DNA of 64,000 bases, from assembly GCA_902556205.1 (NCBI GenBank), contig CACDVH010000005.1, positions 9,091 to 73,090 on the forward strand. The letters are read 5' to 3'. A program made the position numbers and the translations under genes. This document shows positions 36,988 to 64,000 of this stretch, piece by piece (the first letter of the stretch is position 1; every line of letters starts with the position of its first letter). This stretch comes from an uncultured Gammaproteobacteria bacterium (GTDB lineage Bacteria > Pseudomonadota > Gammaproteobacteria > PS1 > Pseudothioglobaceae). The notes under the pieces are model-generated. The model worked only from the letters and a program-made list of their open reading frames with translations, did no database searches and had not been told where the DNA came from.

Positions 36988-37001
36988 GTTAGATTACATA
37001 T

Positions 37002-37032
37002 AAAAAAGAGCCCACTTGTGGGCTCTTTTTTT
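37002..37032 (+). terminator. Intra-operon rho-independent terminator/attenuator after the SBP gene
   Basis: GAGCCCA (37008-14) pairs with TGGGCTC (37019-25), with a 4-nt loop. Flanked by A6 and T7 tracts. Lies between the SBP stop (36987) and the permease start (37049). Confidence 0.75.
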
Positions 37033-37048
37033 AAATAGAATAAGCATC

Positions 37049-38050: not shown

Positions 38051-38059
38051 ATTCCTATT

Positions 38060-39094
38060 ATGTCGAAAATTGAAATAAACAATATTTATAAAATATTTGG
38101 TCCTAACCCTCAGCAAATAATGCCAATGGTAAAAGATGGAGCATCTAAAGAACAAGTGATGGAGGAAACAGGTCACACCGTTGGTCTTGATAACGTCTCA
38201 TTATCTATTGAAGAAGGGGAAATCTTTGTCTGTATGGGGCTTTCTGGCTCAGGAAAGTCAACACTAATTAGGCACATTAATAGGCTAATTGATCCTACTG
38301 CAGGAGAGGTTCTTGTTAACAATGTTGATGTTTGTAGTTTAGACGAAAAAGAAATATTAGAGTTCAGAAAAAAAACCATGAGTATGGTATTCCAGCGATT
38401 TGGACTATTTCCTCATAAGACGATTATTGAAAATGTTGCCTATGGTCTAGAGATTCAAGAGGTTCCTGAAGATCAAAGACATGAGATTGCACAGGGCCAA
38501 ATCAAGGCTGTTGGTCTTGAGGGCTTTGAACACCAGTATCCAGCCCAACTCTCTGGTGGAATGCAGCAAAGGGTTGGTCTAGCAAGAGCACTTGCAACTA
38601 ACCCCGAAATTCTTTTAATGGATGAAGCATTCAGTGCATTAGACCCGCTTATAAGAAGTGAAATGCAGAATCAATTGGTCGAACTTCAAGCCAAACTCAA
38701 AAAAACTATTGTCTTCATAACACATGATCTTGATGAATCTCTTAAACTAGGTGATCACATTGGTATTCTCAATGGTGGAAGACTGGTTCAGGTTGGAAAG
38801 CCGGAAGATATTATCTTAAATCCTGCTGATGATTACGTTAAAGCTTTTGTAAAAGATGTCAACCGCTCTAAAGTTCTTCGAGCAAGAACCATTATGACTA
38901 AACTGGATAAGTTTGATAAGTCATCAGTTAATCCATCATCAACATATAAGTATGATGAGGATACCTATATTGAAGATATTGTTCCTAAGGTATTAAAGGA
39001 CAGGTCAACAATTGAGGTTATTGATAAAGAAGGTATGACTACTGGATTTATCACATCTGATGAACTCTCAGTTGCACTAACTAAAACGAAATAA
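38060..39094 (+). CDS. proV: Glycine betaine/proline-type ABC transporter ATPase
   Basis: 344 aa. Walker A GLSGSGKST, signature LSGGMQQRVGLARAL, Walker B ILLMDEAFSALD, and a short CBS-like tail. Confidence 0.92.
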   Translation: MSKIEINNIYKIFGPNPQQIMPMVKDGASKEQVMEETGHTVGLDNVSLSIEEGEIFVCMGLSGSGKSTLIRHINRLIDPTAGEVLVNNVDVCSLDEKEILEFRKKTMSMVFQRFGLFPHKTIIENVAYGLEIQEVPEDQRHEIAQGQIKAVGLEGFEHQYPAQLSGGMQQRVGLARALATNPEILLMDEAFSALDPLIRSEMQNQLVELQAKLKKTIVFITHDLDESLKLGDHIGILNGGRLVQVGKPEDIILNPADDYVKAFVKDVNRSKVLRARTIMTKLDKFDKSSVNPSSTYKYDEDTYIEDIVPKVLKDRSTIEVIDKEGMTTGFITSDELSVALTKTK

Positions 39095-51657: not shown

Positions 51658-51791
51658 AAAATAAACCTAAAATTATTAATAAAGTTATATTATAACCCTT
51701 GGGACTAATTAGAAATTTACATCATTCTAGCTCTTAGAGAATATGCTATTGTGACCATCCAACATCGCTCTATGTTCCATTGGTGAATTAG

Positions 51792-53033
51792 TTATTGATT
51801 AATAATCCACTCTTTTAAGAGAGAAGTGCCCTTGACTATTCTTGGACAGATTCTATTTAAGTTATCAATAGATGACACCTCTTCCGAAATCAATCTGAGT
51901 GCCTCCTCACCATTAAAATCTACAAACGCAATGCGAGATAGTAATTTACCCTTGTCTAAGCCAAAGTCAGAACCTGGCAGCATTGCAAAACCAACTTCAT
52001 TCAGAATTGTTTGACAAAGTATTTTGTCATCATAAATTTTTCTAAAAATATTTGGAATTTTTGAAAAATCACAGATCATATAAAACCCACCCTGAGGTAG
52101 CTCACAACTAACCCCAACAGTAGACAATTCTTGATAAACAAAGTCTGCAATTGTCTTTAATATAAGTCTCGAATGATTTAAAAATACTGAGTGGTCTTCA
52201 GAGTATGCTTTTATTGCTGCAAACTGAATAGGCGCACTAACTGCAGTATAAGTTTCACTTGCAATTGCTCTGATACTATCCTTAATATAGCTCAATTCTT
52301 TTGGAAATGTCAAGGTCCCTATTCTCCAACCTCCAGCACCACACCACTTGCTAAGTCCACTACTGATAATTGTGTTTTCGGGATAAAAATGAGTCAGTGA
52401 CTTGTATACACCAGAGAAATCTAGTTCTGCATAAATCTCATCAGCAATAATAGTAACTTTGTGTTTTTTTGCAACTTCAGCAAATTCTTTAAGATCATCA
52501 TGAGTTGTTCCAGAGGGATTATTTGGAGAGTTCAAAATCAAAAGTTTGTTGACTGACTTTAGTTTTTCACATGCTATGTCCAGACTCTCGGGACTAAGGT
52601 GCCAATTACTTTCGGCATTTGATTCAATCCAATGAACTTTTTTATTTATCATTTGAGCTTGCGGCTCATAAGATACCCAGCTTGGACTAGGAAGCAATAA
52701 ATCACAATCCAATGCCATTTGAATTTGAAAAATCAACTCCTTAGAACCTGGTCCAATAATGACATTTTGTGAATCATAAGAGTATTGATTCTTACTTGAA
52801 TGATATTTAGCTACCTCTTCTCTAAGAGCTAATAGGCCTGATACATTAAGATAGTCTTTTTCGTGAGCGTGATCTTTTAACTCATTAACAATTACTTTTG
52901 GGACTGGAAACGGCGACTGTCCAAGCCCAAACTTATAAACTTCCTTTCCTTCGCTAATCAATTGCTGAGAAAGCTCATTGATAGCTAGAGTAGCTGAAGT
53001 TTTTAAATTTTGAATATTTTTTTGTATTTTCAT
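51792..53033 (-). CDS. PLP-dependent aminotransferase, class I/II
   Basis: 413 aa. Contains NSPNNPSGT, IADEIYAEL and the SGLSKW.GAGGWRIG lysine motif. Confidence 0.85.
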   Translation of the reverse strand: MKIQKNIQNLKTSATLAINELSQQLISEGKEVYKFGLGQSPFPVPKVIVNELKDHAHEKDYLNVSGLLALREEVAKYHSSKNQYSYDSQNVIIGPGSKELIFQIQMALDCDLLLPSPSWVSYEPQAQMINKKVHWIESNAESNWHLSPESLDIACEKLKSVNKLLILNSPNNPSGTTHDDLKEFAEVAKKHKVTIIADEIYAELDFSGVYKSLTHFYPENTIISSGLSKWCGAGGWRIGTLTFPKELSYIKDSIRAIASETYTAVSAPIQFAAIKAYSEDHSVFLNHSRLILKTIADFVYQELSTVGVSCELPQGGFYMICDFSKIPNIFRKIYDDKILCQTILNEVGFAMLPGSDFGLDKGKLLSRIAFVDFNGEEALRLISEEVSSIDNLNRICPRIVKGTSLLKEWIINQ

Positions 53034-53121
53034 ACTAGTTTTACAAACTACATCCTTGTATTATCAGAATACCAGAAATATATGTTTCTTTTTTTTAAAA
53101 AAATTAAAACTTTTGTATCTT

Positions 53122-55680
53122 TTATTGTTGAATTTGAACAACTTTCCTCTTTCTTCTTAATTGCACAAAACCAACCATCCCTATTAATAATATTGCTGGA
53201 ATATAAACAATTTGTTTAGGCATAGTCTCCCTTTCTTGAAGAACTGAAGTAATAATCCAGCCACTATCTACACCTGCAACTTTTATGGATTCAACCTGTT
53301 TATTTATGGCTCGACTATTTGAAATTCCTGGGAGCACCATTGCAACTTCCATATCTCCAAATAAGTCATCTATTTGAAGTCCAGTATTATTTACCCTTTC
53401 TCTACCTGTCGCCCCATCAGCTAATGGTAATAAAAATGTGTAACTTCTCTCAACACCTTCAATTGTCTCGCCCTCAACAACAAAACGGATTGATTCACCT
53501 TCACTCATACTCTCAGCAACTGTAAACAACTCCTGACCTGAAATATTTTCATAAGGAGGGTCGACTTTATCCAAAAAATATCCTGGCCTGAAAAACATGA
53601 ATGCTACAAACAACATCAATACAGTCTCCCACAGTCGATTTTTAACAAGCCAATAACCCTGAGTAGCTGCAGCAAAAAGTAGAATTGCAATAACTGATGA
53701 GGTTACAACTGAAATAAAACTTATTACACTGTCAATACCAATCATAAGTAGCTGGGTATTGAAAATAAAAATAAATGGAAGTACGGCTGTCCTCATGTCA
53801 TAGATGAAACCCTGAATACCAGTTCTTATCGGATCCCCCTTGGAAATCGCTGCTGCTGCATAGGCAGCAAGACCCACTGGTGGCGTGTCATCAGCTAAAA
53901 TACCAAAATAAAAAACAAACATATGCGCTGCAATCAAAGGAATAGCGACATTATTAGCTGCACCTAAACTCATGATTACAGGGGCCATTAGACTTGAGAC
54001 GACAATATAATTAGCTGTTGTTGGTAAGCCCATTCCTAGAATAAGACTTATCATTGCAGTAAAAAGTAATATTAAAAATAAGTTTCCTGCAGCAATGAAT
54101 TCAACCCAGCCAATTATTAATTGTCCCACTCCAGTTAGTGTTACCGTGCCAACAATGATTCCTGCTGCAGTAGTAGCAACTCCGACACCAATCATATTTC
54201 TAGCTCCATTTACAAAACCAAGCTTTAGATCTATCAAACTTGAAACTAGATGAGCTGCAAAATTAGATTGGCGTCGAAATAAAGCTAAGATAAATTTCTG
54301 CGTTAGCACAATAAACATCATGAACATAGTTGCCCAGTAAACTGAAGTTTCGGGCGAAAACCGCTCAACAGTTAGTAACCAAATTAACAAAATGACTGGC
54401 AGTAAAAAATGAAGTCCTGCCTTAACTGTCTTGCCAATTTCAGGAATTTCAATTATATCTCCTGAGGGCAAATCTGGCATTCTTGAAACAGAATACAAGA
54501 GTCCAACATAACTAAAAAACATAATTAATGCTACAATTAATGTAGTTGCTTCGCCAGCGATCATCTTAATAAATTCGAAGAGAGGCGGGAGCACCCAAAC
54601 AAGAGTACCCAGAACAATCAAAACACTTGAAATACCGATTAACCTATCAACTTTATTAAGCTTGTTGGTTCTAGTAAGTCCTTCCATTCCAGACTTTAAA
54701 GCCTCCAAGTGAACGATATAGATCAGTGCAATGTAAGAAATGACAGCAGGCAAGAAAGCATGCTTAATTACTTCAATGTAAGAGACGCCGACATACTCAA
54801 CCATTAGAAATGCTGCAGTACCCATAATTGGCGGAGTTAGTTGGCCATTGGTAGAGGATGCAACCTCAATTGCTCCAGCTTTCTCGGATGGGAAGCCGAC
54901 TCGTTTCATTAATGGAATTGTAAATGTGCCTGTCGTTACAACATTGGCAATGGAGGATCCAGAAATCATACCAGTCATGGCAGAAGAGACGACTGCAGCC
55001 TTTGCAGGTCCCCCTCGATAATGTCCAGTAAGTGCATAAGCAACCCGTATGAAATAATTACCAGCACCAGCTCTTTCCAGTAGAGCGCCAAAAAGAACAA
55101 ATAAGAAAACCATACTTGCCGAGACTCCAACAGCGATTCCAAATGCTCCTTCAGTAGTAATCCACATGTGTGAGACAATTTTATTTAATGAAGCTCCCCC
55201 ATAACCGCCAGCCCCAAGAAATGCATAGGTCAACGCAATAATTGCTACTACCATTAGCGGTGGCCCAAGAGATCTTCTTGTAGCCTCTAAAAGAAGTAGA
55301 ATTCCAATAATGCTCAAAAATAAATCCGTTGAGTTTGGAACACCTAGCCGCATTTCAAAAGCCCTTGAATCCCAAACCTGGTTATAAACCAAATACAGAC
55401 AAGAAACGACTATAAGAATTCCCATAATCCAATCAGCCCATGGAATGACGACTCTCGATGATCTTTTAAGAGCTGGATAACTTAGAAAAGCTAAAAAGCC
55501 TGCAAAAGAGACATGAACTCTCTTCACTACATCTGCATTCATCCAAGGTGTTACTTCAAGAACTAAAGGGGAAGAAACGTAAAGCTGGAAGACTGACCAG
55601 GCCATAGCAACATAGATTAATATGTTCCTAATTAGTAGATTTCCTGGGTTTCTGTTTCCCGTTTCTAGATCGACTTCCAT
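53122..55680 (-). CDS. TAXI-type TRAP transporter fused permease (4TM/12TM fusion with C-terminal DUF3394-like extension)
   Basis: 852 aa and very hydrophobic. Sits downstream of a TAXI receptor. The C-terminal ~150-aa soluble segment plus final TM resembles the extension common in this family. Confidence 0.85.
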   Translation of the reverse strand: MEVDLETGNRNPGNLLIRNILIYVAMAWSVFQLYVSSPLVLEVTPWMNADVVKRVHVSFAGFLAFLSYPALKRSSRVVIPWADWIMGILIVVSCLYLVYNQVWDSRAFEMRLGVPNSTDLFLSIIGILLLLEATRRSLGPPLMVVAIIALTYAFLGAGGYGGASLNKIVSHMWITTEGAFGIAVGVSASMVFLFVLFGALLERAGAGNYFIRVAYALTGHYRGGPAKAAVVSSAMTGMISGSSIANVVTTGTFTIPLMKRVGFPSEKAGAIEVASSTNGQLTPPIMGTAAFLMVEYVGVSYIEVIKHAFLPAVISYIALIYIVHLEALKSGMEGLTRTNKLNKVDRLIGISSVLIVLGTLVWVLPPLFEFIKMIAGEATTLIVALIMFFSYVGLLYSVSRMPDLPSGDIIEIPEIGKTVKAGLHFLLPVILLIWLLTVERFSPETSVYWATMFMMFIVLTQKFILALFRRQSNFAAHLVSSLIDLKLGFVNGARNMIGVGVATTAAGIIVGTVTLTGVGQLIIGWVEFIAAGNLFLILLFTAMISLILGMGLPTTANYIVVSSLMAPVIMSLGAANNVAIPLIAAHMFVFYFGILADDTPPVGLAAYAAAAISKGDPIRTGIQGFIYDMRTAVLPFIFIFNTQLLMIGIDSVISFISVVTSSVIAILLFAAATQGYWLVKNRLWETVLMLFVAFMFFRPGYFLDKVDPPYENISGQELFTVAESMSEGESIRFVVEGETIEGVERSYTFLLPLADGATGRERVNNTGLQIDDLFGDMEVAMVLPGISNSRAINKQVESIKVAGVDSGWIITSVLQERETMPKQIVYIPAILLIGMVGFVQLRRKRKVVQIQQ

Positions 55681-55693
55681 TGGAATATTGTAT

Positions 55694-55726
55694 AAAAAAA
55701 AAGGATGGCAAAGCCATCCTTTTTTT
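55694..55726 (-). terminator. Intra-operon rho-independent terminator/attenuator after the TAXI receptor gene
   Basis: GGATGGC (55703-09) pairs with GCCATCC (55713-19), with a 3-nt loop. Flanked by A9 and T7 tracts, so it looks bidirectional. Lies between the SBP stop (55740) and the permease start (55680). Confidence 0.75.
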
Positions 55727-55739
55727 CATAACTTAAATA

Positions 55740-56717
55740 TTACATTAAGCCTGCTTCTTTATAGTATTTTGCTGCACCGTTGTGAAGCGGAGCAGATAAA
55801 CCATCCGAAATCATTTCTGCTTTCTTCAAGTTAGCAAACGCAGGGTGAAGCTTCTTAAAACTATCAAAGTTTTCAAAAACTCCCTTAACGATACTGTGAA
55901 TTACATGGTCAGAAGTCGCCGTTGAAGATACAACTGTTGCGCCCACACCAAATGTTACTGTATCATCAGGATTTCCATTGTACATTCCGCCTGGAATAGT
56001 GGCAGTTCGATAGAAATCATTGTTAGCTACTAATCCATCAACTGCAGCGCCAGTCACATTTACTAAGACACTATCACATGAAGTTGTTGCTTCTTTGATT
56101 GACCCTGAAGGGTGGCCAACAGTAAAGACCATTGCATCAATCTTGTTGTCGCATAGTGCTTTTGACTGCTCTGAAGACTTAAGTTCAGAGGCAAGTGCAA
56201 AGGTTGATTTATCCCAACCGAGAGCGTCCATTAATACCTCCATAGTTCCTCTCTGACCAGAGCCAGGGTTTCCTATGTTGACTCTCTTCCCTTTAAGGTC
56301 TTCAAGATTACGAATACCTGAATCTGCTCGTGCTACAACTGTAAAAGGCTCAGGGTGAACAGAAAATACAGCTCTTAAACCTGTAAATGCACCAGCATCA
56401 GCAAACTTGCTTGTTCCGTTATAAGCATGGTACTGCCAGTCTGACTGAGCAACACCCAAATCTAGCTCTCCAGCACGAATAGTATTGATGTTATAAACTG
56501 AGCCACCTGTTGACTCAACTGTACAACGAACACCATGACTCGCTCTATCTTTATTTACTAGTCTACAAATTGAACCACCAGTTGGGTAGTAGACCCCTGT
56601 TACTCCTCCGGTTCCAATTGTAACAAAAGTATCTGCAGCAATTACTGGCGCTGACACCGTCATGCTGCTTAATACAGCCGCGGCAAGTGCGCCACTTAAA
56701 AAGTTAATTTTTTTCAT
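55740..56717 (-). CDS. TAXI-family TRAP transporter solute receptor
   Basis: 325 aa. Signal peptide, [15 protein letters not shown] motif (TIGR02122-like) and C-terminal [10 protein letters not shown]. Confidence 0.88.
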
Positions 56718-56805
56718 TTCATCTCCTTTGTTTTATTAGACAAAAAATTTAAGTCCAAAATAGTTATACCATATTTAATACAATTGTTTCAATATTTATA
56801 TGTAT

Positions 56806-56821
56806 AAAACACAAGTGTTTT
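56806..56821. promoter_or_regulatory. Candidate operator: AAAACAC-AA-GTGTTTT inverted repeat in the TRAP/RpiR divergent region
   Basis: Perfect 7-bp arms with a 2-nt spacer, 48 nt upstream of the regulator ATG (56870) and 88 nt upstream of the SBP start (56717). Confidence 0.35.
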
Positions 56822-56869
56822 CATTTTGTTCGAGTTTATTTAGCTAGATTTATAGTAGAATATTCAGCT

Positions 56870-57751
56870 ATGGATTCAAATAACTTTTCGACTACTGAAA
56901 TCAATCAAAAACTGTCTAATGGATACGTTGGTTTTTCTAAAGAAGTTAAAAAAGCAGCCAAGTATGTAATGGATAATCCTGCAGAGATTCCCTTGCACTC
57001 AATACGAACTATTGCTTCAAATGCCGCAGTTAATCCCTCGACAATGGTTCGTCTTATAACCATACTAGGATTCAAACGTTATGATGAATTTAAGACGATT
57101 TACAAAAAGGCTGCATCCCAGATGCCTGTCTCCAACTTTACATCTCACGCAAAAGATCTCCTGAATGAAAAACATAAGAACCCTTTTTCTGATGTAGAAG
57201 CAAATGTATATAAGTCTCTTTCTGGAGCCTTCAATGATAAAACCTATAAAGCCATTGACTCATCTGTTGATAAATTAATGAAAGCTGAGACTGTTTACAT
57301 TCTAGGAATGAGAAGTAGCTTCTCAATGGCATTTTATTTGCACTATCTTCTGCATTTCATTCTGCCAAAAACAAAATTGATACGTGGCCAAGAAGGAATG
57401 TTACTAAGTGAAATTTCTCAAATAAATGCAAATGATGTGGTGATTGTATTTGGAGCATCTCCTTTGTCACTTGAAACAACAAAAGCACTAGACAAAATCA
57501 AGAAAAGAAAGGCTTTCATTATTGTCGCAACCGATATGTATACCTCTCAAGCAGCATCAAATGCAGATATCATTGTCGCACTTGGCAATGAGACTCTTAA
57601 TTTCCTACCAAGTATCTTGCCATATGCAGCATTCTCAGAAATTCTCGTTTCACAGATTATGACGAAGGGAGGTAAAAAAATGTTAGCTCGAATCAAAAAA
57701 TTTGAAGATGAGCTTTCTGAGATGGGCGCATATATAAGTCCCAGTCAATAA
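56870..57751 (+). CDS. MurR/RpiR-family transcriptional regulator (HTH + SIS domain)
   Basis: 293 aa. N-terminal HTH_6-like region (IRTIASNAAVNPSTMVRL) and a C-terminal SIS fold (VYILGMRSS...VVIVFG). Confidence 0.85.
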   Translation: MDSNNFSTTEINQKLSNGYVGFSKEVKKAAKYVMDNPAEIPLHSIRTIASNAAVNPSTMVRLITILGFKRYDEFKTIYKKAASQMPVSNFTSHAKDLLNEKHKNPFSDVEANVYKSLSGAFNDKTYKAIDSSVDKLMKAETVYILGMRSSFSMAFYLHYLLHFILPKTKLIRGQEGMLLSEISQINANDVVIVFGASPLSLETTKALDKIKKRKAFIIVATDMYTSQAASNADIIVALGNETLNFLPSILPYAAFSEILVSQIMTKGGKKMLARIKKFEDELSEMGAYISPSQ

Positions 57752-57773
57752 TTACAGCTTATGGATCGTACCA

Positions 57774-58463
57774 TTATTTAGAGAGGCTATTTTCGATTTC
57801 TTCCCAGTCCTCAAAATGAAGAACTTGACATGGCGAATTGATATTTTCAAGCCAGGCAAATATAGATATAAAAGGTTGCTCGTAAACTCGAGCAGCATGT
57901 CGCTCTCCAGGTTCATTCCAAACTAATGAACCGGCTGGATAGTCTTTCCATTCTCCCAATTCAAATCGCCAACCTGATTTATCTGAAAGGTTTAGATATA
58001 ACTCTGGCGCATCATGCTTGTGATCACGATAGAGCGTACGTGGTCCAAGCATGAACACGCCTAGGAGAAAGTCATCGCTTTGATATCCACAAGAATTAGG
58101 GCCAATTAGCAGAGTATGCAGGTTGCAATTTTTGTAACCTGGCCCAAGATTTGCTCCAGGTTGATAATATTGAGAATTATCTTCCAACCAAACAAGATCA
58201 TTCTTAGCTGAATAAAGGCAATTTGCAATCTCATTAAGCTGCTGTGCTTTTATTTCATAAATTGCTTGATTTAAAACCTTTTCATGTCTCGTTCCTTTAG
58301 GCTTAACATCAACAAGTTTATCATCGGAAAGATCAATTTTTTCTAACTTTCTCAATGTCATTTCAACTCCTGACATTTCTACTCTATGCTTTTCAAGATA
58401 ACTAATAATGGATCTAACTAGTGCCTTGACTCTAATCTTTCTATCCGTCATCACTTTTTTCAT
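57774..58463 (-). CDS. dddL: Cupin-type DMSP lyase-like protein (DddL-like)
   Basis: 229 aa. Cupin metal/catalytic signature H-K-H-D-A-P-E-L-Y (HxHxxxExY), and a further His 41 residues after the first His (PGERHAARV). This spacing matches cupin DMSP lyases (DddK/L/Q/W), and the length and long N-terminal extension fit DddL. No alignment was run. Confidence 0.55.
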   Translation of the reverse strand: MKKVMTDRKIRVKALVRSIISYLEKHRVEMSGVEMTLRKLEKIDLSDDKLVDVKPKGTRHEKVLNQAIYEIKAQQLNEIANCLYSAKNDLVWLEDNSQYYQPGANLGPGYKNCNLHTLLIGPNSCGYQSDDFLLGVFMLGPRTLYRDHKHDAPELYLNLSDKSGWRFELGEWKDYPAGSLVWNEPGERHAARVYEQPFISIFAWLENINSPCQVLHFEDWEEIENSLSK

Positions 58464-60027
58464 TTAGATTTAAAACATTTTTGCGCATTACTTTTTTGTC
58501 AAGCTTGCCAACGCTTGTTTTAGGAAGTTGCTCAACATAAAAAATGTTGTCGGGAATCGCCCATTTAGATATTTCTCCTAATTCAACATGTTCTCGAAAT
58601 TTTCTTAGTAAATCTTGTCTAATAAGATCTGGCACTGCATTATTCAAAAGTTTTACAACTAATACTACTCTTTCACCCCACTTTTCATTTGGAATGCCAA
58701 TAGCAGCCACTTCTTCAACGCCTGAACATGAGGATGCAATATTTTCGAGTGTAAGCGATGAGATCCATTCGCCACCAGTCTTGATAACATCTTTGAGACG
58801 ATCAGTAACTTGCAATGATCCATTCTCACGAATAAATCCAACATCTCCAGTATGCAGATAGCCATTGCTCCAGAGATCATTAGAGCCCTTAAGGTTACCC
58901 ATATAGCCTTTTGTCAACCAGGGAGCTCGTACAACAATTTCACCAGTTGTTATTCCATCATTAGGAACATCATGCATATCAGGGGTTACAACACGCAGAT
59001 CAACTAGTGGTGCTGAAAACCCAGTTTGGGATTGAGTATCTGGATCAGTACTTGATAAATCTGCAACTGTTAAAAATGGGCAGGTTTCTGACATACCATA
59101 AGCAGCATGCAATCTTATACCAAACTCAGAAGCGCGCCTCTGCAAACTCTTTGATAGAGCAGACCCTCCAATAATTACTTTCCATCTACTCAAATTTACT
59201 TTTTTACTATGGGGATGATCCAATAACATTGATAAAACAGTAGGAACACAATGTGAAAAGGTCACTGCCTCGGAATCGATTAATCGCAATATTGTCTCAG
59301 GGTCGTAACGATTGGGATAAACTTGACGAAGTCCCAACATTGTCGCAGCATAAGGGAAGCCCCACCCATGAACATGGAATAGTGGTGTTAGCGGCATATA
59401 AACATCGTCGCGATGTAATCCAGAATTTCCTGAAAATACACCAAACCCTGCTAATAAACCCAATGTGTGAAGAACCAACTGCCGATGTGAATAGCTGACT
59501 CCTTTTGGATCACCTGTTGTCCCAGTTGTATAAAACAGTGTTGCAGTTCTATTTTCATCAAATTCTGGAAAATTAAAACTAGTTGATGAACGACTTATCC
59601 ATTCTTCATACTTTTCACCATATCCAATAGGGATGATTAGAGTTTCGCACTCAAAGTCTGATTTGATTTCTTCAATTAAGGGCATGAAGTCCTGATGAAC
59701 AATTATTAGATCAGGCTTGGCATGATTAATTGTATAAAGAACTTGCTTTGGAGACAAACGCACATTGATTGTATGCAGAGCTGCCCCCATCATGGGTACA
59801 GCAAAAAAATACTCAAGATAGCGGTGAGTGTCCCAATCCATAACGCCGACGCGCATTTTTTCAGAAATACCCTTAGCAGTTAGAGAATTGGCCAGTCTTC
59901 CAAGGCGTCCAGTAAACTCATGATAATTTAGCCTTACATTTGGGTTACTAACAATTTCTTGCGAAAAAGACATAACGCTAGATTTTGTAAGAATTTGCTT
60001 AATTAAAAGGGGATACTCAGAATCCAT
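58441..60027 (-). CDS. AMP-forming medium-chain acyl-CoA ligase, DmdB (3-methylmercaptopropionyl-CoA ligase)-like
   Basis: 528 aa. AMP-binding motif YTTGTTGDPKGV. N-terminal region (PLLI..IL...........EIVS, W.THRYLE, GAALHTINVRLSP.Q..YTINHA) resembles DmdB as I recall it. 23-nt overlap with the dddL-like gene. Confidence 0.6.
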   Translation of the reverse strand: MDSEYPLLIKQILTKSSVMSFSQEIVSNPNVRLNYHEFTGRLGRLANSLTAKGISEKMRVGVMDWDTHRYLEYFFAVPMMGAALHTINVRLSPKQVLYTINHAKPDLIIVHQDFMPLIEEIKSDFECETLIIPIGYGEKYEEWISRSSTSFNFPEFDENRTATLFYTTGTTGDPKGVSYSHRQLVLHTLGLLAGFGVFSGNSGLHRDDVYMPLTPLFHVHGWGFPYAATMLGLRQVYPNRYDPETILRLIDSEAVTFSHCVPTVLSMLLDHPHSKKVNLSRWKVIIGGSALSKSLQRRASEFGIRLHAAYGMSETCPFLTVADLSSTDPDTQSQTGFSAPLVDLRVVTPDMHDVPNDGITTGEIVVRAPWLTKGYMGNLKGSNDLWSNGYLHTGDVGFIRENGSLQVTDRLKDVIKTGGEWISSLTLENIASSCSGVEEVAAIGIPNEKWGERVVLVVKLLNNAVPDLIRQDLLRKFREHVELGEISKWAIPDNIFYVEQLPKTSVGKLDKKVMRKNVLNLNEKSDDG

Positions 60028-60071
60028 ATTCTTAGTAGATACTCAAACTGTAAGTCAGAAAACCAAGTCTA

Positions 60072-61718
60072 TTAGTTTTCTTTTAGCTCTCTTCTTAAGA
60101 CTTTTCCAACATTAGTTTTTGGAATCTCTTTGATAAATTCTATATGCTTTGGAACTTTATAAGCGGTTAACTTTTCCCTACAGAAACTGATAATTTCTTC
60201 CTCAGTTGCAGTTTGCTCATCATGAAGAACAATAAATACTTTTACAAGCTCTTGAGAACCTTCACCCTCTATTCCAACACAGCCACATTCAAGAACAGCA
60301 GGGTGCTCATTAACAACCGCTTCAACCTCATTTGGAAAGACATTAAAGCCTGAGACAATAATCATGTCCTTCTTTCGATCCACAATAAAAATATTACCAG
60401 TTTCATCAATTCGAGCAATGTCACCGGTCATAAACCAATTATTCTTATCAAGACCAGAGACTTCCGACTTCCAATAACCACTCATAACCTGTGGGCCTCT
60501 GACACAAAGCTCTCCAACAGCATTCGTTTCGGAAAGGGCATTTCCATCTTCATCCCTAATTTCAATTTCAGTGTAAGATGCTGGCAGGCCTACTGAGCCT
60601 GTAAATTCAGTCTGCTTGTAGTCGTTAACACTAACCAATGGAGAGGTCTCAGTGAGTCCATAAGCCTGCCAAATCACTGATTTAGTAACCTCTGCCCATC
60701 TTTTTGCCGTTGTGTCAAGGGCTGCCATACCCCCGCTTAATGACATGAGCAAGTTACTGAAATCTAACTCTTTAAATCCGTCATAATTCAATAGCGCCTC
60801 ATAAAGCGTGTTCACACCTGAGATCATGTGAAACTTATGTTTCTTCATTATTGAAACGAATGCCTTAAGATCTCTAGGATTGGTAATCAAAACGCTCCTT
60901 CCACCAATATGGAACAGCATGAAGTTATGAACAGTTAGAGCAAAAATATGATACAAAGGTAATGGGCAAATAGCGATCCTTTGTTCTTTTCTTGAGTCAT
61001 CGTACATTTTAGGATCGATTGTAAAGAAGGCCTGGATGATGTTAGCAAGAATATTTCGGTGAGTCAGAATAGCGCCTTTAGAAACACCAGTAGTTCCCCC
61101 AGTGTACTGAAGGAACGCAGTGTTCTCAATAGGAATATCTATGGGTGCTGACTTTGATCCTTCATTCTCCTTCAAAACCTCAAGAAACATTTTTGCACCA
61201 TCAATTTGATACTTCGGCACTAACTTTTTGACTTTTCTAGTAACCAAATTAATGATCTTTCCCTTAAATCCAAGAAGATCTCCAACAGTTGTTACCAGAA
61301 CTTTCTCCACGCTTGCAAGGTCTGATTTAGCAGCAACGTTAGCAACGCCCTCCCAAACCAATAATAATTTTGCTTCGCTGTCTCTCAAGACATGCTCAAG
61401 CTCTCTTTGAGTGTAGAGAGGGTTAATGTTCACCACAACGATACCTGCTTTCAAGGCACCATAGACTATGACAGGGTAAACCAGCATGTTAGGCATCATG
61501 ACAGCAACTCTGTCACCCACCTCAAAGTTGCTAGTCAGCCAAGAGGCAAAGGAGTGAACCTGGGCCGATAAATCATTGTAGGACATCTCAACCCCAAAAC
61601 TTTCAAACGCTATCTTTTCTTGATGCTCATTACAACAGTTATCAAAAAACTCTACTAAGTTTCCATGCTCCTTAAAAAAATCTGTCTCTTCAAGTTTGTT
61701 TGGTATGTTGACTGTCAT
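60072..61718 (-). CDS. fadD: Long-chain-fatty-acid--CoA ligase
   Basis: 548 aa. Contains LQYTGGTTGVSKGAILTHRNI, GYGLTE-like (AYGLTETSP), TGDIA and the C-terminal GK lysine. Closely FadD-like. Confidence 0.85.
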   Translation of the reverse strand: MTVNIPNKLEETDFFKEHGNLVEFFDNCCNEHQEKIAFESFGVEMSYNDLSAQVHSFASWLTSNFEVGDRVAVMMPNMLVYPVIVYGALKAGIVVVNINPLYTQRELEHVLRDSEAKLLLVWEGVANVAAKSDLASVEKVLVTTVGDLLGFKGKIINLVTRKVKKLVPKYQIDGAKMFLEVLKENEGSKSAPIDIPIENTAFLQYTGGTTGVSKGAILTHRNILANIIQAFFTIDPKMYDDSRKEQRIAICPLPLYHIFALTVHNFMLFHIGGRSVLITNPRDLKAFVSIMKKHKFHMISGVNTLYEALLNYDGFKELDFSNLLMSLSGGMAALDTTAKRWAEVTKSVIWQAYGLTETSPLVSVNDYKQTEFTGSVGLPASYTEIEIRDEDGNALSETNAVGELCVRGPQVMSGYWKSEVSGLDKNNWFMTGDIARIDETGNIFIVDRKKDMIIVSGFNVFPNEVEAVVNEHPAVLECGCVGIEGEGSQELVKVFIVLHDEQTATEEEIISFCREKLTAYKVPKHIEFIKEIPKTNVGKVLRRELKEN

Positions 61719-61733
61719 TAGATTACCTCATTG

Positions 61734-62303
61734 TTAGTTATTTTTTACTTTGCCTATTAAGATTTCCTTATATTCATTATAAACCTCTCCATCCTTTTTG
61801 AAAGCAAAACATGAGTTTGCAAACTTCTTTTCTATTGACTTGGCCTCTTCAAGAGTTATGGCTTCTGACTCACCACCTGTTTTTTCTTTCCACAGGGTTT
61901 GATAAGCAATAGTTCCAGCATAGGCCAGGAGGTCAGTAATGTGTCTGCAACCCTTTTCGCCCCCTAGAGCCTTTATGACCTTTCTATTAAAGCCAGCAAC
62001 GACATACTCGCCCTTTAGTTTTTGGCAGTTTTTAACCGCTTGAGGGCAAATGTTATAGGGAGAGGCGTTTATCGATGCCTCTATATCGATAATTTGTCTG
62101 TTATCATCGAGAGTCAGTCTGAGCGCCATGTCATGAAGAGGCTCACCGGCGCTAATATATCCTCGATGCATATTGTTAAAGGAGTAGGTTTTACTATCAA
62201 CAAGAAAAACTTCAATGTCCCACATTCCATCTTCTCTTTTATAGCCTTTGCCTTCAATCGTTCTATTATGTTTTAAATCTCTTCTGGCCGGCTTAGATAG
62301 CAT
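61734..62303 (-). CDS. DUF2889-domain protein
   Basis: 189 aa. The pattern HNRTIEGKGYKREDGMWDIEVFLVD.K, AGEPLHDM.LRL, P...CP and CRH.TDLL is typical of DUF2889. Confidence 0.65.
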   Translation of the reverse strand: MLSKPARRDLKHNRTIEGKGYKREDGMWDIEVFLVDSKTYSFNNMHRGYISAGEPLHDMALRLTLDDNRQIIDIEASINASPYNICPQAVKNCQKLKGEYVVAGFNRKVIKALGGEKGCRHITDLLAYAGTIAYQTLWKEKTGGESEAITLEEAKSIEKKFANSCFAFKKDGEVYNEYKEILIGKVKNN

Positions 62304-62313
62304 AGTGTGATCC

Positions 62314-63294
62314 TTATGAAATTCGATTTTTAGATTCTTTATATTGCTGCTCTAATTCTAACATCAAATCCTCAACACTCGGCACATTGGAAATTGAGCC
62401 AACACCTTGACCAGCAGAAAAAATATCCTTCCATCTCTTTGCTGAAGCCTTACTGACATCAAAATCTACCTTAAGTTTTTGCTTGATGAGTGGCATTATC
62501 ATTTTCTTAAAATTAGAGATTGTTGATTGAATACCTCCAGCATTTGGATTAATACCAGCGTTATTAAGGGATTGCTCAAGCCAGTTCCCATTCACTCCGG
62601 TAATCTTGTTAGACTTAATAATATCACCTGCCGATGCATTTAAGATCATCTGCTTATAGTCTTCAGTCGCGTCACTCTCTTCGGTGGCAATAAATCGAGT
62701 GCCCATATAAGCCATATCTGCCCCCAAAGCTTGAATCGCTAGAACTGAATCGCCAGAACTAATACTTCCACCAACTATAATTGTTCCATCAAATATGCTT
62801 CTCACTTCAGATATAAAGGCGAATGGGGAAAGGTCTCCAGTATGACCCCCCGCACCATTACAAACAAGAATAAGTCCGTCTACTCCAGCGCTAATTGCTT
62901 TTTTTGAGTGATACAAATTAATGACATCTGAATAGACTAGGCCGCCATATTCATGAACTTTATTTACAACCTCTTTAGGGTTCCCAAGAGAGGTAATAAC
63001 TATGGGCGGCTTATGCTTAAGAATTAACTCTATATCATCATTACTCCTGGCATACATTTTACTTACGATGATGTTTACCGCCCAAGGCAGAGCATCTTTA
63101 CCTGATCCTAATGCTTGTGTTATTTCTGTGAATTCTTGATCTAAAGCCTCTAAAGTTCGACAGTTAGCAGTCGGAAAGGACCCAACAATTCCTGCCTTAG
63201 AAGATGCTATCACAAGCCTAGCATTCGAGACAATAAACATAGGTGACTGAATAATTGGCAGTCTGAGCTGGTCGATGTAGTTTTGATTAGTCAT
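62314..63294 (-). CDS. Nitronate monooxygenase / FabK-like FMN-dependent enoyl reductase family protein
   Basis: Contains LPIIQSPM, GAGGHTG and MGTRF motifs. Start set at ATG 63294 (MTNQNY); the ORF-track extension to 63345 would overlap the thiolase. Confidence 0.85.
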   Translation of the reverse strand: MTNQNYIDQLRLPIIQSPMFIVSNARLVIASSKAGIVGSFPTANCRTLEALDQEFTEITQALGSGKDALPWAVNIIVSKMYARSNDDIELILKHKPPIVITSLGNPKEVVNKVHEYGGLVYSDVINLYHSKKAISAGVDGLILVCNGAGGHTGDLSPFAFISEVRSIFDGTIIVGGSISSGDSVLAIQALGADMAYMGTRFIATEESDATEDYKQMILNASAGDIIKSNKITGVNGNWLEQSLNNAGINPNAGGIQSTISNFKKMIMPLIKQKLKVDFDVSKASAKRWKDIFSAGQGVGSISNVPSVEDLMLELEQQYKESKNRIS

Positions 63295-63301
63295 AAATGA
63301 T

Positions 63302-64000
63302 TTAGCATCTTTTAATGATCCCTGCAGCCCCCATCCCAGTTCCAATACACATGGTTACCATTCCATAATCAATCTTTTCTCTTTGCATTGCAGAAACAAG
63401 TGTTGCAATTCTAATGGCTCCAGTAGCACCCAGAGGATGTCCAAGGGCTATAGCACCTCCAAGTGGGTTGACCTTTTCTGGATCAAGTTTTAACTCCTGA
63501 GTAACAGCCAGAGATTGCGCAGCAAATGCCTCATTAAGCTCAATCCATCCAATATCATCAAGAGAAAGGTCTAAGGAGTCAAGAACTTTAGGCACCGCCT
63601 TGACTGGACCAATACCCATTATTTCTGCAGGAACTCCGGCAACCGAAAAGCCCAGAAACTCTGCCTTAGGCGTTAAATTATATTTCTCAACTGCCTCTTC
63701 ACTAGCAACAAGAACAGCGGCGGCGGCATCTGACATTTGAGAGCTGTTTCCTGCTGTCACTGAACCATCTTGAGCAAAAACAGTTCTTAGTTTTGCTAAA
63801 ACTTCCAAACTTGTATCTTCTCTAGGTCCTTCATCTTTAGAAACAAGATTAGTGTTTTTTATATATTCATTTGATTCAACTGAGTAACTATCCTCAACAG
63901 TTGAAATGGGTACAATTTCATTTTCAAATAAACCGCTATTGTTTGCTTTTATTGCTTTTTGGTGGCTGTCGTAAGCGAACTGATCTTGTGCCTCTCGGGA
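63302..64000 (-). CDS. Acetyl-CoA C-acyltransferase (thiolase), C-terminal part; gene continues past the window end
   Basis: The reading frame is open from the window edge: SREAQDQFAYDSHQKA...VSKDEGPR...LAKLRTVF...GSVTAGNSS.MSD.AAAV, NEAFAAQ, GGAIALGHPLGATG and CIGTGMG. The ORF track's TTG at 63808 is internal. Confidence 0.92.
   Translation of the reverse strand, partial: SREAQDQFAYDSHQKAIKANNSGLFENEIVPISTVEDSYSVESNEYIKNTNLVSKDEGPREDTSLEVLAKLRTVFAQDGSVTAGNSSQMSDAAAAVLVASEEAVEKYNLTPKAEFLGFSVAGVPAEIMGIGPVKAVPKVLDSLDLSLDDIGWIELNEAFAAQSLAVTQELKLDPEKVNPLGGAIALGHPLGATGAIRIATLVSAMQREKIDYGMVTMCIGTGMGAAGIIKRC

What the first reader, a model, noticed from the sequence alone, without database searches (positions are those of the whole stretch)
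57774..58463. DddL-like cupin carrying the DMSP-lyase HxHxxxExY...H signature
Seen: the sequence RDHKHDAPELYLNL...WNEPGERHAARV gives His, His+2, Glu+6, Tyr+8, and a further His 41 residues after the first. That is the metal and catalytic Tyr spacing of cupin DMSP lyases (for example DddK H56/H58/E62/Y64/H96, as I recall). The 229-aa size with a ~120-aa N-terminal extension fits DddL rather than the short DddK/DddW. If it is real, this streamlined low-GC gammaproteobacterium-like genome can release DMS.
Basis: partly seen in the sequence, partly recalled or inferred. Interest (0 to 1): 0.6.

Follow-up and report, generated by a model that had tools for sequence, protein, structure and literature searches.

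The report
DddU-type DMSP lyase in Pseudothioglobus
The gene is an intact cupin enzyme of the recently described DddU family (not DddL) that most likely splits the algal osmolyte DMSP into the climate-active gas DMS plus acrylate; it travels with a partner CoA-ligase gene as a strain-variable two-gene module in a small marine SUP05-group bacterium, and is auto-annotated in GenBank but unstudied.

Summary
ORF 57774-58463 (-) encodes 229 aa carrying H148-x-H150-x3-E154-x-Y156 and H189.

It is a DMSP-lyase-type cupin, but not DddL. It is 63% identical to the characterised DddU of Amylibacter (Neptunicoccus) cionae. It sits inside a well-supported DddU clade and keeps all four mutation-tested DddU residues. 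Its confident model (pLDDT 94.6) matches DddQ crystal structures best. Pfam's DMSP_lyase model scores DddU, DddQ and this protein alike (74-81 bits), so a hit there does not mean DddL.

The host is a Pseudothioglobus (1.65 Mb, 37.9% GC). The gene was found in 5 of 43 genomes of the genus and in none of 79 genomes from 18 sister genera.

An overlapping acyl-CoA ligase, 72% identical to the ligase upstream of dddU in Roseobacters, is co-inherited with it. Together they form a 2.3-kb module in a hypervariable slot after a beta-oxidation operon. Both genes are under purifying selection (dN/dS about 0.15), have host-like composition, and occur in marine metatranscriptome contigs from three studies.

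Verdict: a new gammaproteobacterial member of a known family, of moderate interest. The scan's index shows no look-alike on other DNA.

The parts
57774..58463 (-). dddU-like gene, 229 aa from M1. A DddU-family cupin DMSP lyase candidate.
   Evidence: ORF. PF16867 76.4 bits. 63% identity to N. cionae DddU P0040. Lies in the DddU clade. AF2 pLDDT 94.6. Best fold matches are DddQ structures.
58449..58451 (-). Alternative start codon (Met5), homologous to the Roseobacter DddU start. It gives a 225-aa product with residue numbering identical to PiDddU.
   Evidence: Alignment of N-termini (MTDRK vs MTDKQ). Both 225-aa and 229-aa gene calls exist in the same 90% cluster. Start-region sequence.
57996..58022 (-). 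Cupin motif 1 codons: H148-K-H150-D-A-P-E154-L-Y156 (metal ligands plus the catalytic Tyr).
   Evidence: Sequence. Invariant in 57/57 family members. Equivalent residues H146/E150/Y152 of PiDddU abolish activity when mutated to Ala (PMC11497337).
57897..57899 (-). His189 codon (cupin motif 2 metal ligand; equals H185 of PiDddU).
   Evidence: Mutational data in PMC11497337.
58441..60027 (-). AMP-forming acyl-CoA (AasS/FadD-like) ligase, 528 aa. Its stop overlaps the dddU start by 23 nt (11 nt if M5 is used). It is the co-inherited partner gene.
   Evidence: Pfam AMP-binding and NCBIfam PRK06187 553 bits. 72% identity to the ligase directly upstream of dddU in N. cionae, Ruegeria and Leisingera, 69% in Cocleimonas. 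Same adjacency in 35 DddU loci. PDB: acyl-ACP synthetase 8HSY 543 bits against DmdB 6IHK 295 bits.
57757..60050 (.). The 2.3-kb ligase-dddU module as an indel unit. It lies in the variable slot between the conserved FadD-like gene and the downstream genes.
   Evidence: Congeneric genomes G006, G010 and G019 have other content at this site. One contig in run X1 joins 57756 to 60051, skipping 2294 nt (single contig, weak evidence).
60072..64000 (-). Upstream host operon (context, not part of the module): FadD-like ligase, DUF2889, NMO/FabK-like protein and thiolase. It continues beyond the window with an HCDH/ECH fusion and an acyl-CoA dehydrogenase.
   Evidence: Conserved at 82-98% identity in genus genomes with and without dddU.
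51792..57751 (.). Neighbouring RpiR regulator (+), TAXI-TRAP transporter and aminotransferase (-). This is a separate indel block and not demonstrably linked to dddU function.
   Evidence: Pfam. G019 has TAXI-TRAP and aminotransferase without rpiR, the ligase or dddU. SAGs L002/L003 have ligase-dddU without this block. L002 keeps a ~130-bp rpiR 3' remnant.

Best explanation
The gene encodes a DddU-family, metal-dependent cupin lyase. By homology it binds a divalent metal through H150, E154, Y156 and H189 (with H148 alongside). It uses Tyr156 as the base that abstracts the C-alpha proton of DMSP, so that beta-elimination releases dimethyl sulfide and acrylate. Like characterised DddU, it probably also cleaves DMSOP to DMSO and acrylate. 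The gene is translationally coupled to an upstream acyl-CoA ligase, and the pair forms a conserved two-gene module. The inferred role of the ligase is to activate the acrylate product (or a related short acid) to its CoA ester, which could then enter the adjacent hydratase/dehydrogenase/thiolase operon. The module is an accessory trait of some Pseudothioglobus strains, shared with Roseobacters and a few other Gammaproteobacteria through old horizontal exchange. Shown here: family membership, residue conservation, fold, gene linkage, strain-variable distribution, purifying selection, and presence in metatranscriptome assemblies. Inferred: enzymatic activity, substrate preference, the ligase's substrate, and co-transcription with the upstream operon.
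For: Homology: the protein is 63% identical over its full length to N. cionae DddU, which is characterised by knockout, complementation and in vitro assay (PMC11497337). Tree: the DddU family is separated from DddQ-like, presumed DddL-type and other cupins (SH-aLRT 99). The window protein lies in the crown clade (100) with the characterised enzyme, in a Pseudothioglobus/metagenome subclade (99). Residues: H148/H150/E154/Y156/H189 are invariant in 57/57 sequences, and 55 columns are invariant in alignment A1. Structure: AF2 model pLDDT 94.6, pTM 0.91. The top Foldseek hits are DddQ structures 4LA2, 5CU1, 4B29 and 5JSP (E ~1e-13, TMt ~0.8, ~207 columns), against generic cupins at E ~1e-8 and ~105 columns. 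The DddU paper found the same for PiDddU. Linkage: the ligase is 69-72% identical and directly upstream in the same orientation in 35 DddU loci. In A. cionae this ligase is induced by DMSP together with dddU. Selection: dN/dS is 0.146-0.160 for dddU and 0.131 for the ligase, with dS similar to the flanks. The frame is intact in all 5 genus genomes that carry it. Expression: near-identical contigs in metatranscriptome libraries from three studies cover dddU and bridge into the ligase, for example X1 57739-58876 with 7 mismatches. Physiology: 'Ca. Thioglobus' carries the DMSP importer DmpX (PMC10030565). The genome has two ProXWV-type ABC systems resembling the dddU-linked one of N. cionae.
Against: No enzyme assay exists for this protein or for any DddU below about 70% identity to the type enzyme. 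Characterised DddU is a poor DMSP lyase (Km 8 mM, kcat 0.7 per s), and deleting it only halved DMS production in A. cionae. DddU is 2-83-fold more efficient on DMSOP than on DMSP (PMC10686828). Purifying selection is 3-5 times weaker than on neighbouring core genes. The ligase is closer to fatty-acid/acyl-ACP synthetases (8HSY, 543 bits) than to DmdB (295 bits), and nothing shows that it takes acrylate. No AcuI-type acryloyl-CoA reductase reaches its cutoff in the genome (best 83 bits against 297). Logan contigs from RNA libraries do not prove transcription, since DNA carry-over is possible. A North Sea study that found DMSP-cleavage genes in a Thioglobus_A MAG saw no expression of them.
Confidence: 0.8

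Rival explanations
1. It is a canonical DddL.
For: It matches PF16867 (DMSP_lyase, the model associated with DddL) above the cutoff. Its size, about 230 aa with an N-terminal extension, is similar to that of L069 (230 aa).
Against: PF16867 also scores true DddQ (74 bits) and true DddU (81 bits) at the same level and over the same model range 31-161. The only full-length, higher-scoring match (L069, 128.6 bits, model positions 2-161) is 29% identical over just 79 residues and has a different motif spacing. The tree places the window protein with DddU at 99-100 support. Caveat: L069 is only presumed to be DddL-type, because public names say just 'family protein'.
Confidence: 0.02
2. It is a DddU-type cupin whose physiological substrate is not DMSP, with DMS release only a promiscuous side activity. 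The real substrate could be DMSOP, another sulfonium or betaine compound, or a thioester made by the coupled ligase.
For: DddU has weak kinetics on DMSP and is 2-83-fold more efficient on DMSOP. The partner is an AasS/FadD-like ligase rather than a known acrylate ligase. The module sits at the end of a fatty-acid beta-oxidation operon. The window also holds betaine-CoA pathway genes (earlier notes).
Against: In A. cionae the whole cluster is induced by DMSP, and the knockout lowers DMS production. Millimolar Km values are typical of accepted DMSP lyases (Table 1). The active-site residues are identical to those shown to be needed for DMSP cleavage.
Confidence: 0.13
3. It is a decaying or non-functional remnant of a horizontally acquired gene.
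For: The distribution is patchy (5 of 43 genus genomes). dN/dS is higher than in neighbouring genes. The partner ligase in the complete genome nBUS_23 carries a 1-bp deletion in a C-run. One contig lacks the module precisely.
Against: The frame is intact and all catalytic residues are present in every copy. A dN/dS of 0.15 still indicates clear purifying selection. Composition is fully ameliorated and dS equals that of the flanks, which indicates long vertical residence. The 90%-identity cluster has 511 members, and one sequence in it was seen on 100 contigs. The nBUS_23 frameshift lies in a homopolymer and may be an assembly error.
Confidence: 0.04

Closest known systems
DddU (Amylibacter/Neptunicoccus cionae H-12 IEX10_RS05395; Phaeobacter inhibens P66 PiDddU; Wang et al. 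2023, PMC11497337)
   Same: It is 63% identical over the full length, of the same length, and has identical key residues (H146/E150/Y152/H185 when counted from Met5). It has the same DddQ-like predicted fold. An orthologous acyl-CoA ligase (72% identity) lies directly upstream with an overlapping stop and start. A hydratase/dehydrogenase and a thiolase are in the neighbourhood.
   Different: It falls below the >70% identity filter that the paper used to list DddU in RefSeq. The host is a low-GC gammaproteobacterium, not a Roseobacter. It forms its own subclade. The local context differs: there is no LysR regulator or ABC transporter next to it, and it sits at the 3' end of a host beta-oxidation operon beside an RpiR/TAXI-TRAP block that is an independent indel. 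Its activity is untested.
DddQ (Ruegeria lacuscaerulensis 4LA2/5JSO, R. pomeroyi 5CU1, Roseovarius nubinhibens 4B29)
   Same: It is the best structural match (E ~1e-13, TMt ~0.8, ~207 aligned columns, including the N-terminal helices). It has the same H-x-H-x3-E-x-Y...H signature and the same conserved Trp after motif 2.
   Different: Sequence identity is only 14-19%, and the phmmer E-value is 7e-6 at best. It forms a separate clade on a long branch.
DddL-type proteins (Pfam PF16867 full-length matches; represented here by L069 from Sulfitobacter sediminis, presumed DddL-type)
   Same: Both are cupins of about 230 aa with an N-terminal extension, both match PF16867, and both have His/His/Glu/Tyr/His residues.
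   Different: Identity is 29% over only 79 residues. L069 has one extra residue between the second His and the Glu (H-x-H-x4-E-x-Y). It covers PF16867 positions 2-161 at 129 bits, against 31-161 at 76 bits here. It falls outside the DddU clade.
DddK (SAR11; PDB 5TG0)
   Different: DddK is a minimal cupin without the N-terminal helical domain. It ranks only 49th in the fold search, with 114 aligned columns.

Membership tests
DddU (cupin DMSP lyase) | Groups with experimentally characterised DddU to the exclusion of DddL/Q/K/W/Y-type cupins | tested here: met
   63% identity to N. cionae DddU. ML tree: family clade SH-aLRT 99, crown clade with the type enzyme 100. Outgroups included a verified DddQ and a presumed DddL-type protein.
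DddU (cupin DMSP lyase) | Key residues His146, Glu150, Tyr152 and His185 (PiDddU numbering), shown by Ala substitution to be needed for activity | tested here: met
   H150, E154, Y156 and H189 from M1 (H146, E150, Y152 and H185 from M5). Invariant in 57/57 family sequences.
DddU (cupin DMSP lyase) | More than 70% identity to H-12 DddU. This was the BLAST filter the authors used for their RefSeq survey; it is a survey threshold, not a definition. Their metagenome criterion was an HMM E-value below 1e-30 plus the key residues. | tested here: not met
   62.6-64% identity. By the paper's other criterion it would qualify: the phmmer E-values between the window protein and the Roseobacter DddU proteins are about 1e-98 to 1e-100, and the key residues are present. 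A later survey used 40% identity or more (PMC13310141).
DddU (cupin DMSP lyase) | DddQ-like fold: a beta-barrel surrounded by helices, with a superposable metal site | tested here: met
   AF2 pLDDT 94.6. Foldseek's top six hits are all DddQ, with TMt 0.72-0.81. I did not check the superposition of individual side chains.
DddU (cupin DMSP lyase) | Releases DMS and acrylate from DMSP | not testable with these tools
   This needs recombinant protein with GC/HPLC assays.
DddU (cupin DMSP lyase) | Gene linked to an acyl-CoA ligase within a ddd-acu-type cluster | tested here: met
   An orthologous ligase (69-72% identity) abuts dddU in 35 loci, including this one. The rest of the Roseobacter cluster (LysR, ABC transporter, FadB-like gene, thiolase) is not orthologously conserved here.
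DddL | Match to Pfam PF16867 DMSP_lyase | tested here: met
   76.4 bits against a cutoff of 27. The match does not discriminate: DddU scores 81 bits and true DddQ 74 bits.
DddL | Closer to DddL-type proteins than to other cupin lyases, with full-length coverage of the model | tested here: not met
   29% identity over 79 aa to L069. Model coverage is 31-161 only. It lies outside that lineage in the tree. L069's identity as DddL is presumed, not verified.
DddL | Motif spacing H-x-H-x4-E-x-Y, as seen in the presumed DddL-type protein L069 | tested here: not met
   The window protein has H-x-H-x3-E-x-Y.
Cupin superfamily | Two cupin motifs on a beta-barrel with His/Glu metal ligands | tested here: met
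   Motif 1 at residues 148-156 and motif 2 around H189. Ten beta-strands between residues 114 and 214 in the model. Many cupins appear among the fold hits.

The most novel reading that the evidence does not exclude
The conserved, translationally coupled ligase-DddU pair might be a genuine two-enzyme system rather than a lyase plus a clean-up step. In this reading the AMP-forming ligase first makes a thioester of DMSP or a related compound (as the ADP-forming DddX does for DMSP). The cupin then cleaves that thioester to DMS and acryloyl-CoA. This would explain DddU's poor kinetics on free DMSP and the near-obligate gene linkage across alpha- and gammaproteobacterial hosts. It would also make strain-variable SUP05-group heterotrophs an unrecognised DMS source in coastal and polar water.
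Probability: 0.07. Interest if true: 0.7.

Novelty: new member of a known kind. Interest (0 to 1): 0.35.

Why it matters
DMS from bacterial DMSP cleavage is the main biogenic sulfur flux to the atmosphere. Budgets therefore depend on knowing which taxa carry which lyase.

DddU was described in 2023 as essentially a Roseobacter (alphaproteobacterial) enzyme. [quoted passage not shown]

This window shows a well-conserved DddU subclade in Pseudothioglobus, the heterotrophic SUP05/ARCTIC96BD-19 group. The subclade is abundant in public marine data: its 90%-identity cluster has 511 members. Such sequences pass the 40% identity filters used in surveys, so part of the environmental 'dddU' signal may belong to these Gammaproteobacteria.

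The gene is present in only about one genome in nine within the genus. DMS-producing potential in this clade is therefore a strain-level trait, not a clade-level one. The conserved ligase-dddU module is a concrete, testable unit for working out how acrylate (or DMSP itself) is handled after or before cleavage.

Tried and rejected
- NCBIfam has no model for DddU, DddQ, DddL-type or the other cupins tested. It could not be used to name them.
- I tried to verify that L069 is DddL from public names, but the sources only say 'DMSP lyase family protein'. I therefore call it 'presumed DddL-type'. No DddL structure appeared in the PDB sequence searches.
- The promoter and terminator scan of 57500-60400 found no more sites than shuffled sequence gives: 6 promoter-like sites against 8.5 +/- 2.8 expected, and 2 terminator-like sites against 1.5 expected. 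I draw no conclusion from it about a separate promoter for the module.
- Depth values from Logan contigs cannot rank genes or prove transcription, so I use them only for presence. Two further joints in X1 (51728->60070 and 52018->57739) have short sides of 25-29 nt and I did not rely on them.
- The direction of horizontal transfer (alpha to gamma or the reverse) could not be resolved. The crown of the tree is a polytomy, and the basal grade mixes Roseobacters with Chromatiales and Granulosicoccaceae.
- I considered whether the TAXI-TRAP transporter imports DMSP. I rejected it as evidence, because that block occurs without dddU (G019) and dddU occurs without it (the SAGs).
- I did not check side-chain geometry at the metal site of the model.
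Full report
**1. The observation**

The ORF listing finds a 229-aa ATG-initiated ORF at 57774..58463 on the minus strand. Its translation holds ...LYRDHKHDAPELYLNL... and ...WNEPGERHAARV.... I checked the codons against the raw sequence.

Pfam-A returns a single family, PF16867 DMSP_lyase, at E 2.7e-21 and 76.4 bits against a cutoff of 27. The match covers residues 62-199 of the protein and positions 31-161 of the 162-position model.

**2. Which family it belongs to**

A search of 5.8 billion proteins gave 194 hits.
- The closest (79-91% identity) come only from marine metagenomes.
- Next comes a tight band at about 63% identity: 228-aa proteins from Roseobacter-group genomes named 'dimethylsulfonioproprionate lyase family protein'. 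One of them is P0040 from Neptunicoccus (= Amylibacter) cionae.

That organism is the source of DddU, described by Wang et al. 2023 (PMC11497337). In that paper:
- A. cionae H-12 has no homologue of the nine known lyases above 25% identity.
- A gene annotated 'DMSP lyase family protein' (IEX10_RS05395) lies in a DMSP-induced cluster, and deleting it halves DMS production.
- The recombinant enzyme makes acrylate from DMSP.
- In the 93%-identical Phaeobacter inhibens enzyme, H146A, E150A, Y152A and H185A almost abolish activity.

P0040 carries H146, E150, Y152 and H185 at exactly those positions, and it is the only PF16867 match in that genome. It is therefore DddU. The window protein has the same residues at the same numbers if counted from Met5.

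To test DddL against DddU, I scanned five genomes with PF16867.

| Protein | PF16867 score | Model positions |
|---|---|---|
| Authentic DddU (N. cionae) | 81 bits | 32-161 |
| Window protein | 76-77 bits | 31-161 |
| L075 (Ruegeria atlantica), a true DddQ (E 8e-86 to PDB 4LA2) | 74 bits | 19-162 |
| L069 (Sulfitobacter sediminis), presumed DddL-type | 128.6 bits | 2-161 |

A PF16867 match therefore identifies the broad group of DMSP-lyase-type cupins, not DddL.

L069 has the motif H-A-H-K-G-I-T-E-S-Y, one residue longer than the window's H-K-H-D-A-P-E-L-Y. It aligns with the window protein over only 79 residues at 29% identity.

I built a maximum-likelihood tree of 57 DddU-like proteins and 8 other cupins. 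It separates the DddU family (SH-aLRT 99). The window protein falls in a seven-member Pseudothioglobus/metagenome clade (99). That clade lies inside a crown clade (100) that also contains the characterised N. cionae enzyme.

All five signature residues are invariant in the 57 sequences. In a 36-sequence alignment, 55 columns are invariant.

**3. Structure**

AlphaFold2 on that alignment gives a confident model: pLDDT 94.6, pTM 0.91. It has an N-terminal helical part (helices 7-25, 31-41, 61-69 and 74-89) followed by a ten-strand barrel.

Foldseek against the PDB ranks six DddQ chains first (4LA2, 5CU1, 4B29, 4LA3, 5JSP). They score E 4e-13 to 2e-12 and TMt 0.72-0.81 over 207-215 aligned columns. 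Generic small cupins follow at E ~1e-8 with about 105 columns. DddY ranks 22nd and DddK 49th.

This reproduces what the DddU authors reported for PiDddU. It also shows that the N-terminal 'extension' is the DddQ/DddU-type helical domain.

**4. Host and distribution**

The window is contig C5:9091-73090 of a 1.65-Mb, 32-contig assembly that is 92% complete with 37.9% GC. The nearest loci are in Pseudothioglobus sp. nBUS_23 (a complete genome) and two single-cell genomes of an 'uncultured gamma proteobacterium'.

Across 122 genomes of the family, an orthologue (86-88% identity) occurs in 5 of 43 genomes of this genus, counting the window's own. It occurs in none of 79 genomes from 18 other genera. 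Absence from incomplete genomes is not proof, but three complete or 97-99% complete congeners lack it.

Outside the genus, DddU homologues are mainly Roseobacter-group. They also occur in MAGs assigned to Cocleimonas, Thiolinea, Granulosicoccaceae, a Chromatiales symbiont of Bugula and others. The well-supported branches of the tree force at least three alpha/gamma label changes. The direction of transfer is unresolved.

**5. The module and its site**

The upstream gene (58441-60027) is an AMP-forming acyl-CoA ligase. Its stop overlaps the dddU start by 23 nt, or by 11 nt from Met5.
- It is 72% identical to the ligase that directly precedes dddU in N. cionae (IEX10_RS05400, DMSP-induced according to the paper), Ruegeria and Leisingera, where the overlap is 4 nt.
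- It is 69% identical in Cocleimonas and 68% in Neomegalonema.
- The same adjacency holds in 35 DddU loci. It is missing from the basal clade and from some pelagic Roseobacter lineages.

The remaining neighbours are not orthologous between the lineages. In Roseobacters the pair is followed by a FadB-like hydratase/dehydrogenase and a thiolase. It is preceded by a divergently oriented gene the DddU paper annotates as a LysR regulator, and by an ABC transporter. In the window the pair follows a host beta-oxidation operon: acyl-CoA dehydrogenase, HCDH/ECH fusion, thiolase, NMO/FabK-like protein, DUF2889 and FadD. That operon is conserved at 82-98% identity in congeners with or without dddU.

The site between FadD and thymidine kinase is a variable slot:

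| Genome | Content of the slot |
|---|---|
| G006 | one unrelated 465-aa gene |
| G010 | one unrelated 650-aa gene |
| G019 | TAXI-TRAP, aminotransferase and an unrelated 653-aa gene |
| Single-cell genomes L002, L003 | ligase-dddU only |
| Window, nBUS_23 | ligase-dddU, rpiR, TAXI-TRAP, aminotransferase |

L002 keeps about 130 bp of the rpiR 3' end next to dddU, so its shorter layout is a secondary deletion. The TAXI-TRAP block is thus an independent indel and gives no evidence about dddU's substrate.

**6. Is the gene alive?**

- **Composition:** GC and GC3 are 0.375/0.278 for dddU and 0.391/0.276 for the ligase. The genome averages are 0.386 +/- 0.032 and 0.303 +/- 0.049, so the genes are fully ameliorated.
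- **Selection:** against nBUS_23 and a single-cell genome, dN/dS is 0.146-0.160 for dddU and 0.131 for the ligase, compared with 0.02-0.08 for ten neighbouring genes. dS is 0.38-0.43 for the module and 0.18-0.81 for the neighbours.

The module has therefore diverged vertically with its surroundings. It is under purifying selection, but that selection is 3-5 times weaker than on core genes.

- **Public data:** its 90%-identity cluster has 511 members. One sequence in it was seen on 100 contigs and is named 'dimethylsulfoniopropionate lyase [Candidatus Pseudothioglobus singularis]' in GenBank.
- **RNA libraries:** Logan contigs from libraries of three studies carry near-identical sequence that spans dddU and runs into the ligase. 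Examples are X1 57739-58876 with 7 differences, X7 57823-58810 with 4, and shorter pieces in X8 and X9. This is compatible with transcription in situ but does not prove it.
- **Polymorphism:** one X1 contig joins 57756 to 60051 and so lacks exactly the ligase-dddU pair. This hints at presence/absence polymorphism in one natural population, but it rests on a single contig.

**7. Mechanism**

By homology with DddU and DddQ, I propose the following. A divalent metal is held by H150, E154, Y156 and H189, with H148 nearby. DMSP's carboxylate binds at the metal, and Tyr156 abstracts the alpha-proton. Beta-elimination then gives DMS and acrylate.

Characterised DddU also cleaves DMSOP and does so more efficiently than DMSP (PMC10686828), so producing DMSO and acrylate is equally plausible.

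The fate of the acrylate is inferred, not shown.
- The coupled ligase is the genome's best match to the DmdB model, but it is far below the cutoff (382 bits against 822).
- It is closer to a crystallised acyl-ACP synthetase (8HSY, 543 bits) than to DmdB (6IHK, 295 bits).
- No AcuI-type reductase reaches its cutoff. If acryloyl-CoA is formed, hydration by the adjacent ECH/HCDH enzymes is the likeliest route.

DMSP import is plausible. 'Ca. Thioglobus' carries DmpX according to PMC10030565. The genome also has two ProXWV-type systems resembling the dddU-linked transporter of N. cionae, one of them in this window at 35971-39094.

**8. What is already known, and novelty**

DddU is a published family. 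GenBank's pipeline already labels this protein a DMSP lyase. A North Sea preprint mentions in passing a Thioglobus_A MAG with DMSP-cleavage genes and no detected expression.

No paper in the searchable library links DddU to Pseudothioglobus/SUP05 or describes the ligase-dddU module as a unit. The DddU paper surveyed only proteins above 70% identity and called the gene 'mainly from Alphaproteobacteria'.

I therefore class this as a new member (a gammaproteobacterial subclade) of a known kind.

Earlier notes of this scan on the same window had noticed the operon arrangement and the overlap. No look-alike on other DNA is recorded.

Noticed in passing
G000 contig C14:12513-13103 (L014 1423-2013), outside the window: This is a second PF16867 match in the same genome (41.8 bits, 196 aa). 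Its motif reads R-Q-H-E-A-E-E-T-F, so the first His is Arg and the catalytic Tyr is Phe. It probably is not a lyase of the DddQ/U type. It lies directly after a 392-aa ORF that by eye looks Rieske-oxygenase-like (not scanned) and near a gene that by eye looks like a proteorhodopsin (not scanned). The same variant occurs in nBUS_23 (L077), and its 90% cluster has 398 members.
   Followed up: partly
G000 contig C1:31925-36051 (L108 2926-7052), outside the window: A 379-aa GcvT-family gene has 'dimethylsulfoniopropionate demethylase' (NF009133) as its best NCBIfam match, at 360 bits, just under the 410 cutoff. It is followed by a 150-aa ORF, an enoyl-CoA hydratase (PRK08139, above cutoff) and an acyl-CoA synthetase (PRK08162, above cutoff). 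This may be a DmdA-like demethylation cluster, so the organism may both demethylate and cleave DMSP. The genome has 12 GCV_T-family matches in all.
   Followed up: partly
L009, L012 (G001, G023) and L007, L008, L010, L011 (G023, G012, G032, G001): Other Pseudothioglobus genomes that lack dddU carry two other cupin types with a complete H-x-H-x3-E-x-Y signature. One is about 199 aa with H-S-H-E-A-E-E-L-Y (DddQ-like). The other is about 215 aa with H-N-H-D-A-V-E-T-Y. The genus pangenome therefore holds several candidate cupin lyases, and one of them is annotated 'transcriptional regulator' in GenBank.
   Followed up: partly
L001 7544-7562 (Pseudothioglobus sp. nBUS_23, complete genome): The dddU-linked ligase is split into 370-aa and 153-aa ORFs by a 1-bp deletion in a run of C (five C in the window's relatives, four here). 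This is either a real frameshift or a homopolymer assembly error.
   Followed up: partly
window 51658-60071 and the same site in L002, L003, L087-L089: The interval between thymidine kinase and the FadD-like gene is a hypervariable slot with at least five different contents among congeners. The single-cell genome L002 keeps a ~130-bp remnant of the rpiR 3' end, which shows a deletion of rpiR, TAXI-TRAP and the aminotransferase.
   Followed up: yes
window 57756/60051 (run X1): One contig from a marine RNA library joins these two points with five other letters between them. It skips exactly the ligase-dddU pair. This may be a module-less variant coexisting with module carriers in the same sample.
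   Followed up: no
window 35971-39094: This is a ProXWV-type ABC transporter. Its binding protein scores 74 bits on the ProX model (cutoff 215) and is 29% identical to the binding protein of the dddU-linked ABC system of N. cionae. A second, closer system (35% identity) lies on contig C6. Either could be a betaine or DMSP importer.
   Followed up: partly
L031 (Luminiphilus MAG, 2-kb contig) and L060 (Pseudomonadales MAG): These are DddU copies 93% and 87% identical to the N. cionae enzyme, in bins labelled Gammaproteobacteria. The 2-kb contig nests among Roseobacter sequences in the tree and is probably mis-binned. L060 lies on a 487-kb contig and deserves a look as a possible recent transfer.
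   Followed up: no
window 55984-56697 (TAXI receptor gene): In two RNA libraries (X8, X9) the contigs over the TAXI substrate-binding protein gene have much higher depth than all their neighbours: up to 510 in X8 and 82 in X9, against 0-25 in the adjacent bins. This suggests the receptor is highly expressed in situ. Contig depths are only indicative.
   Followed up: no
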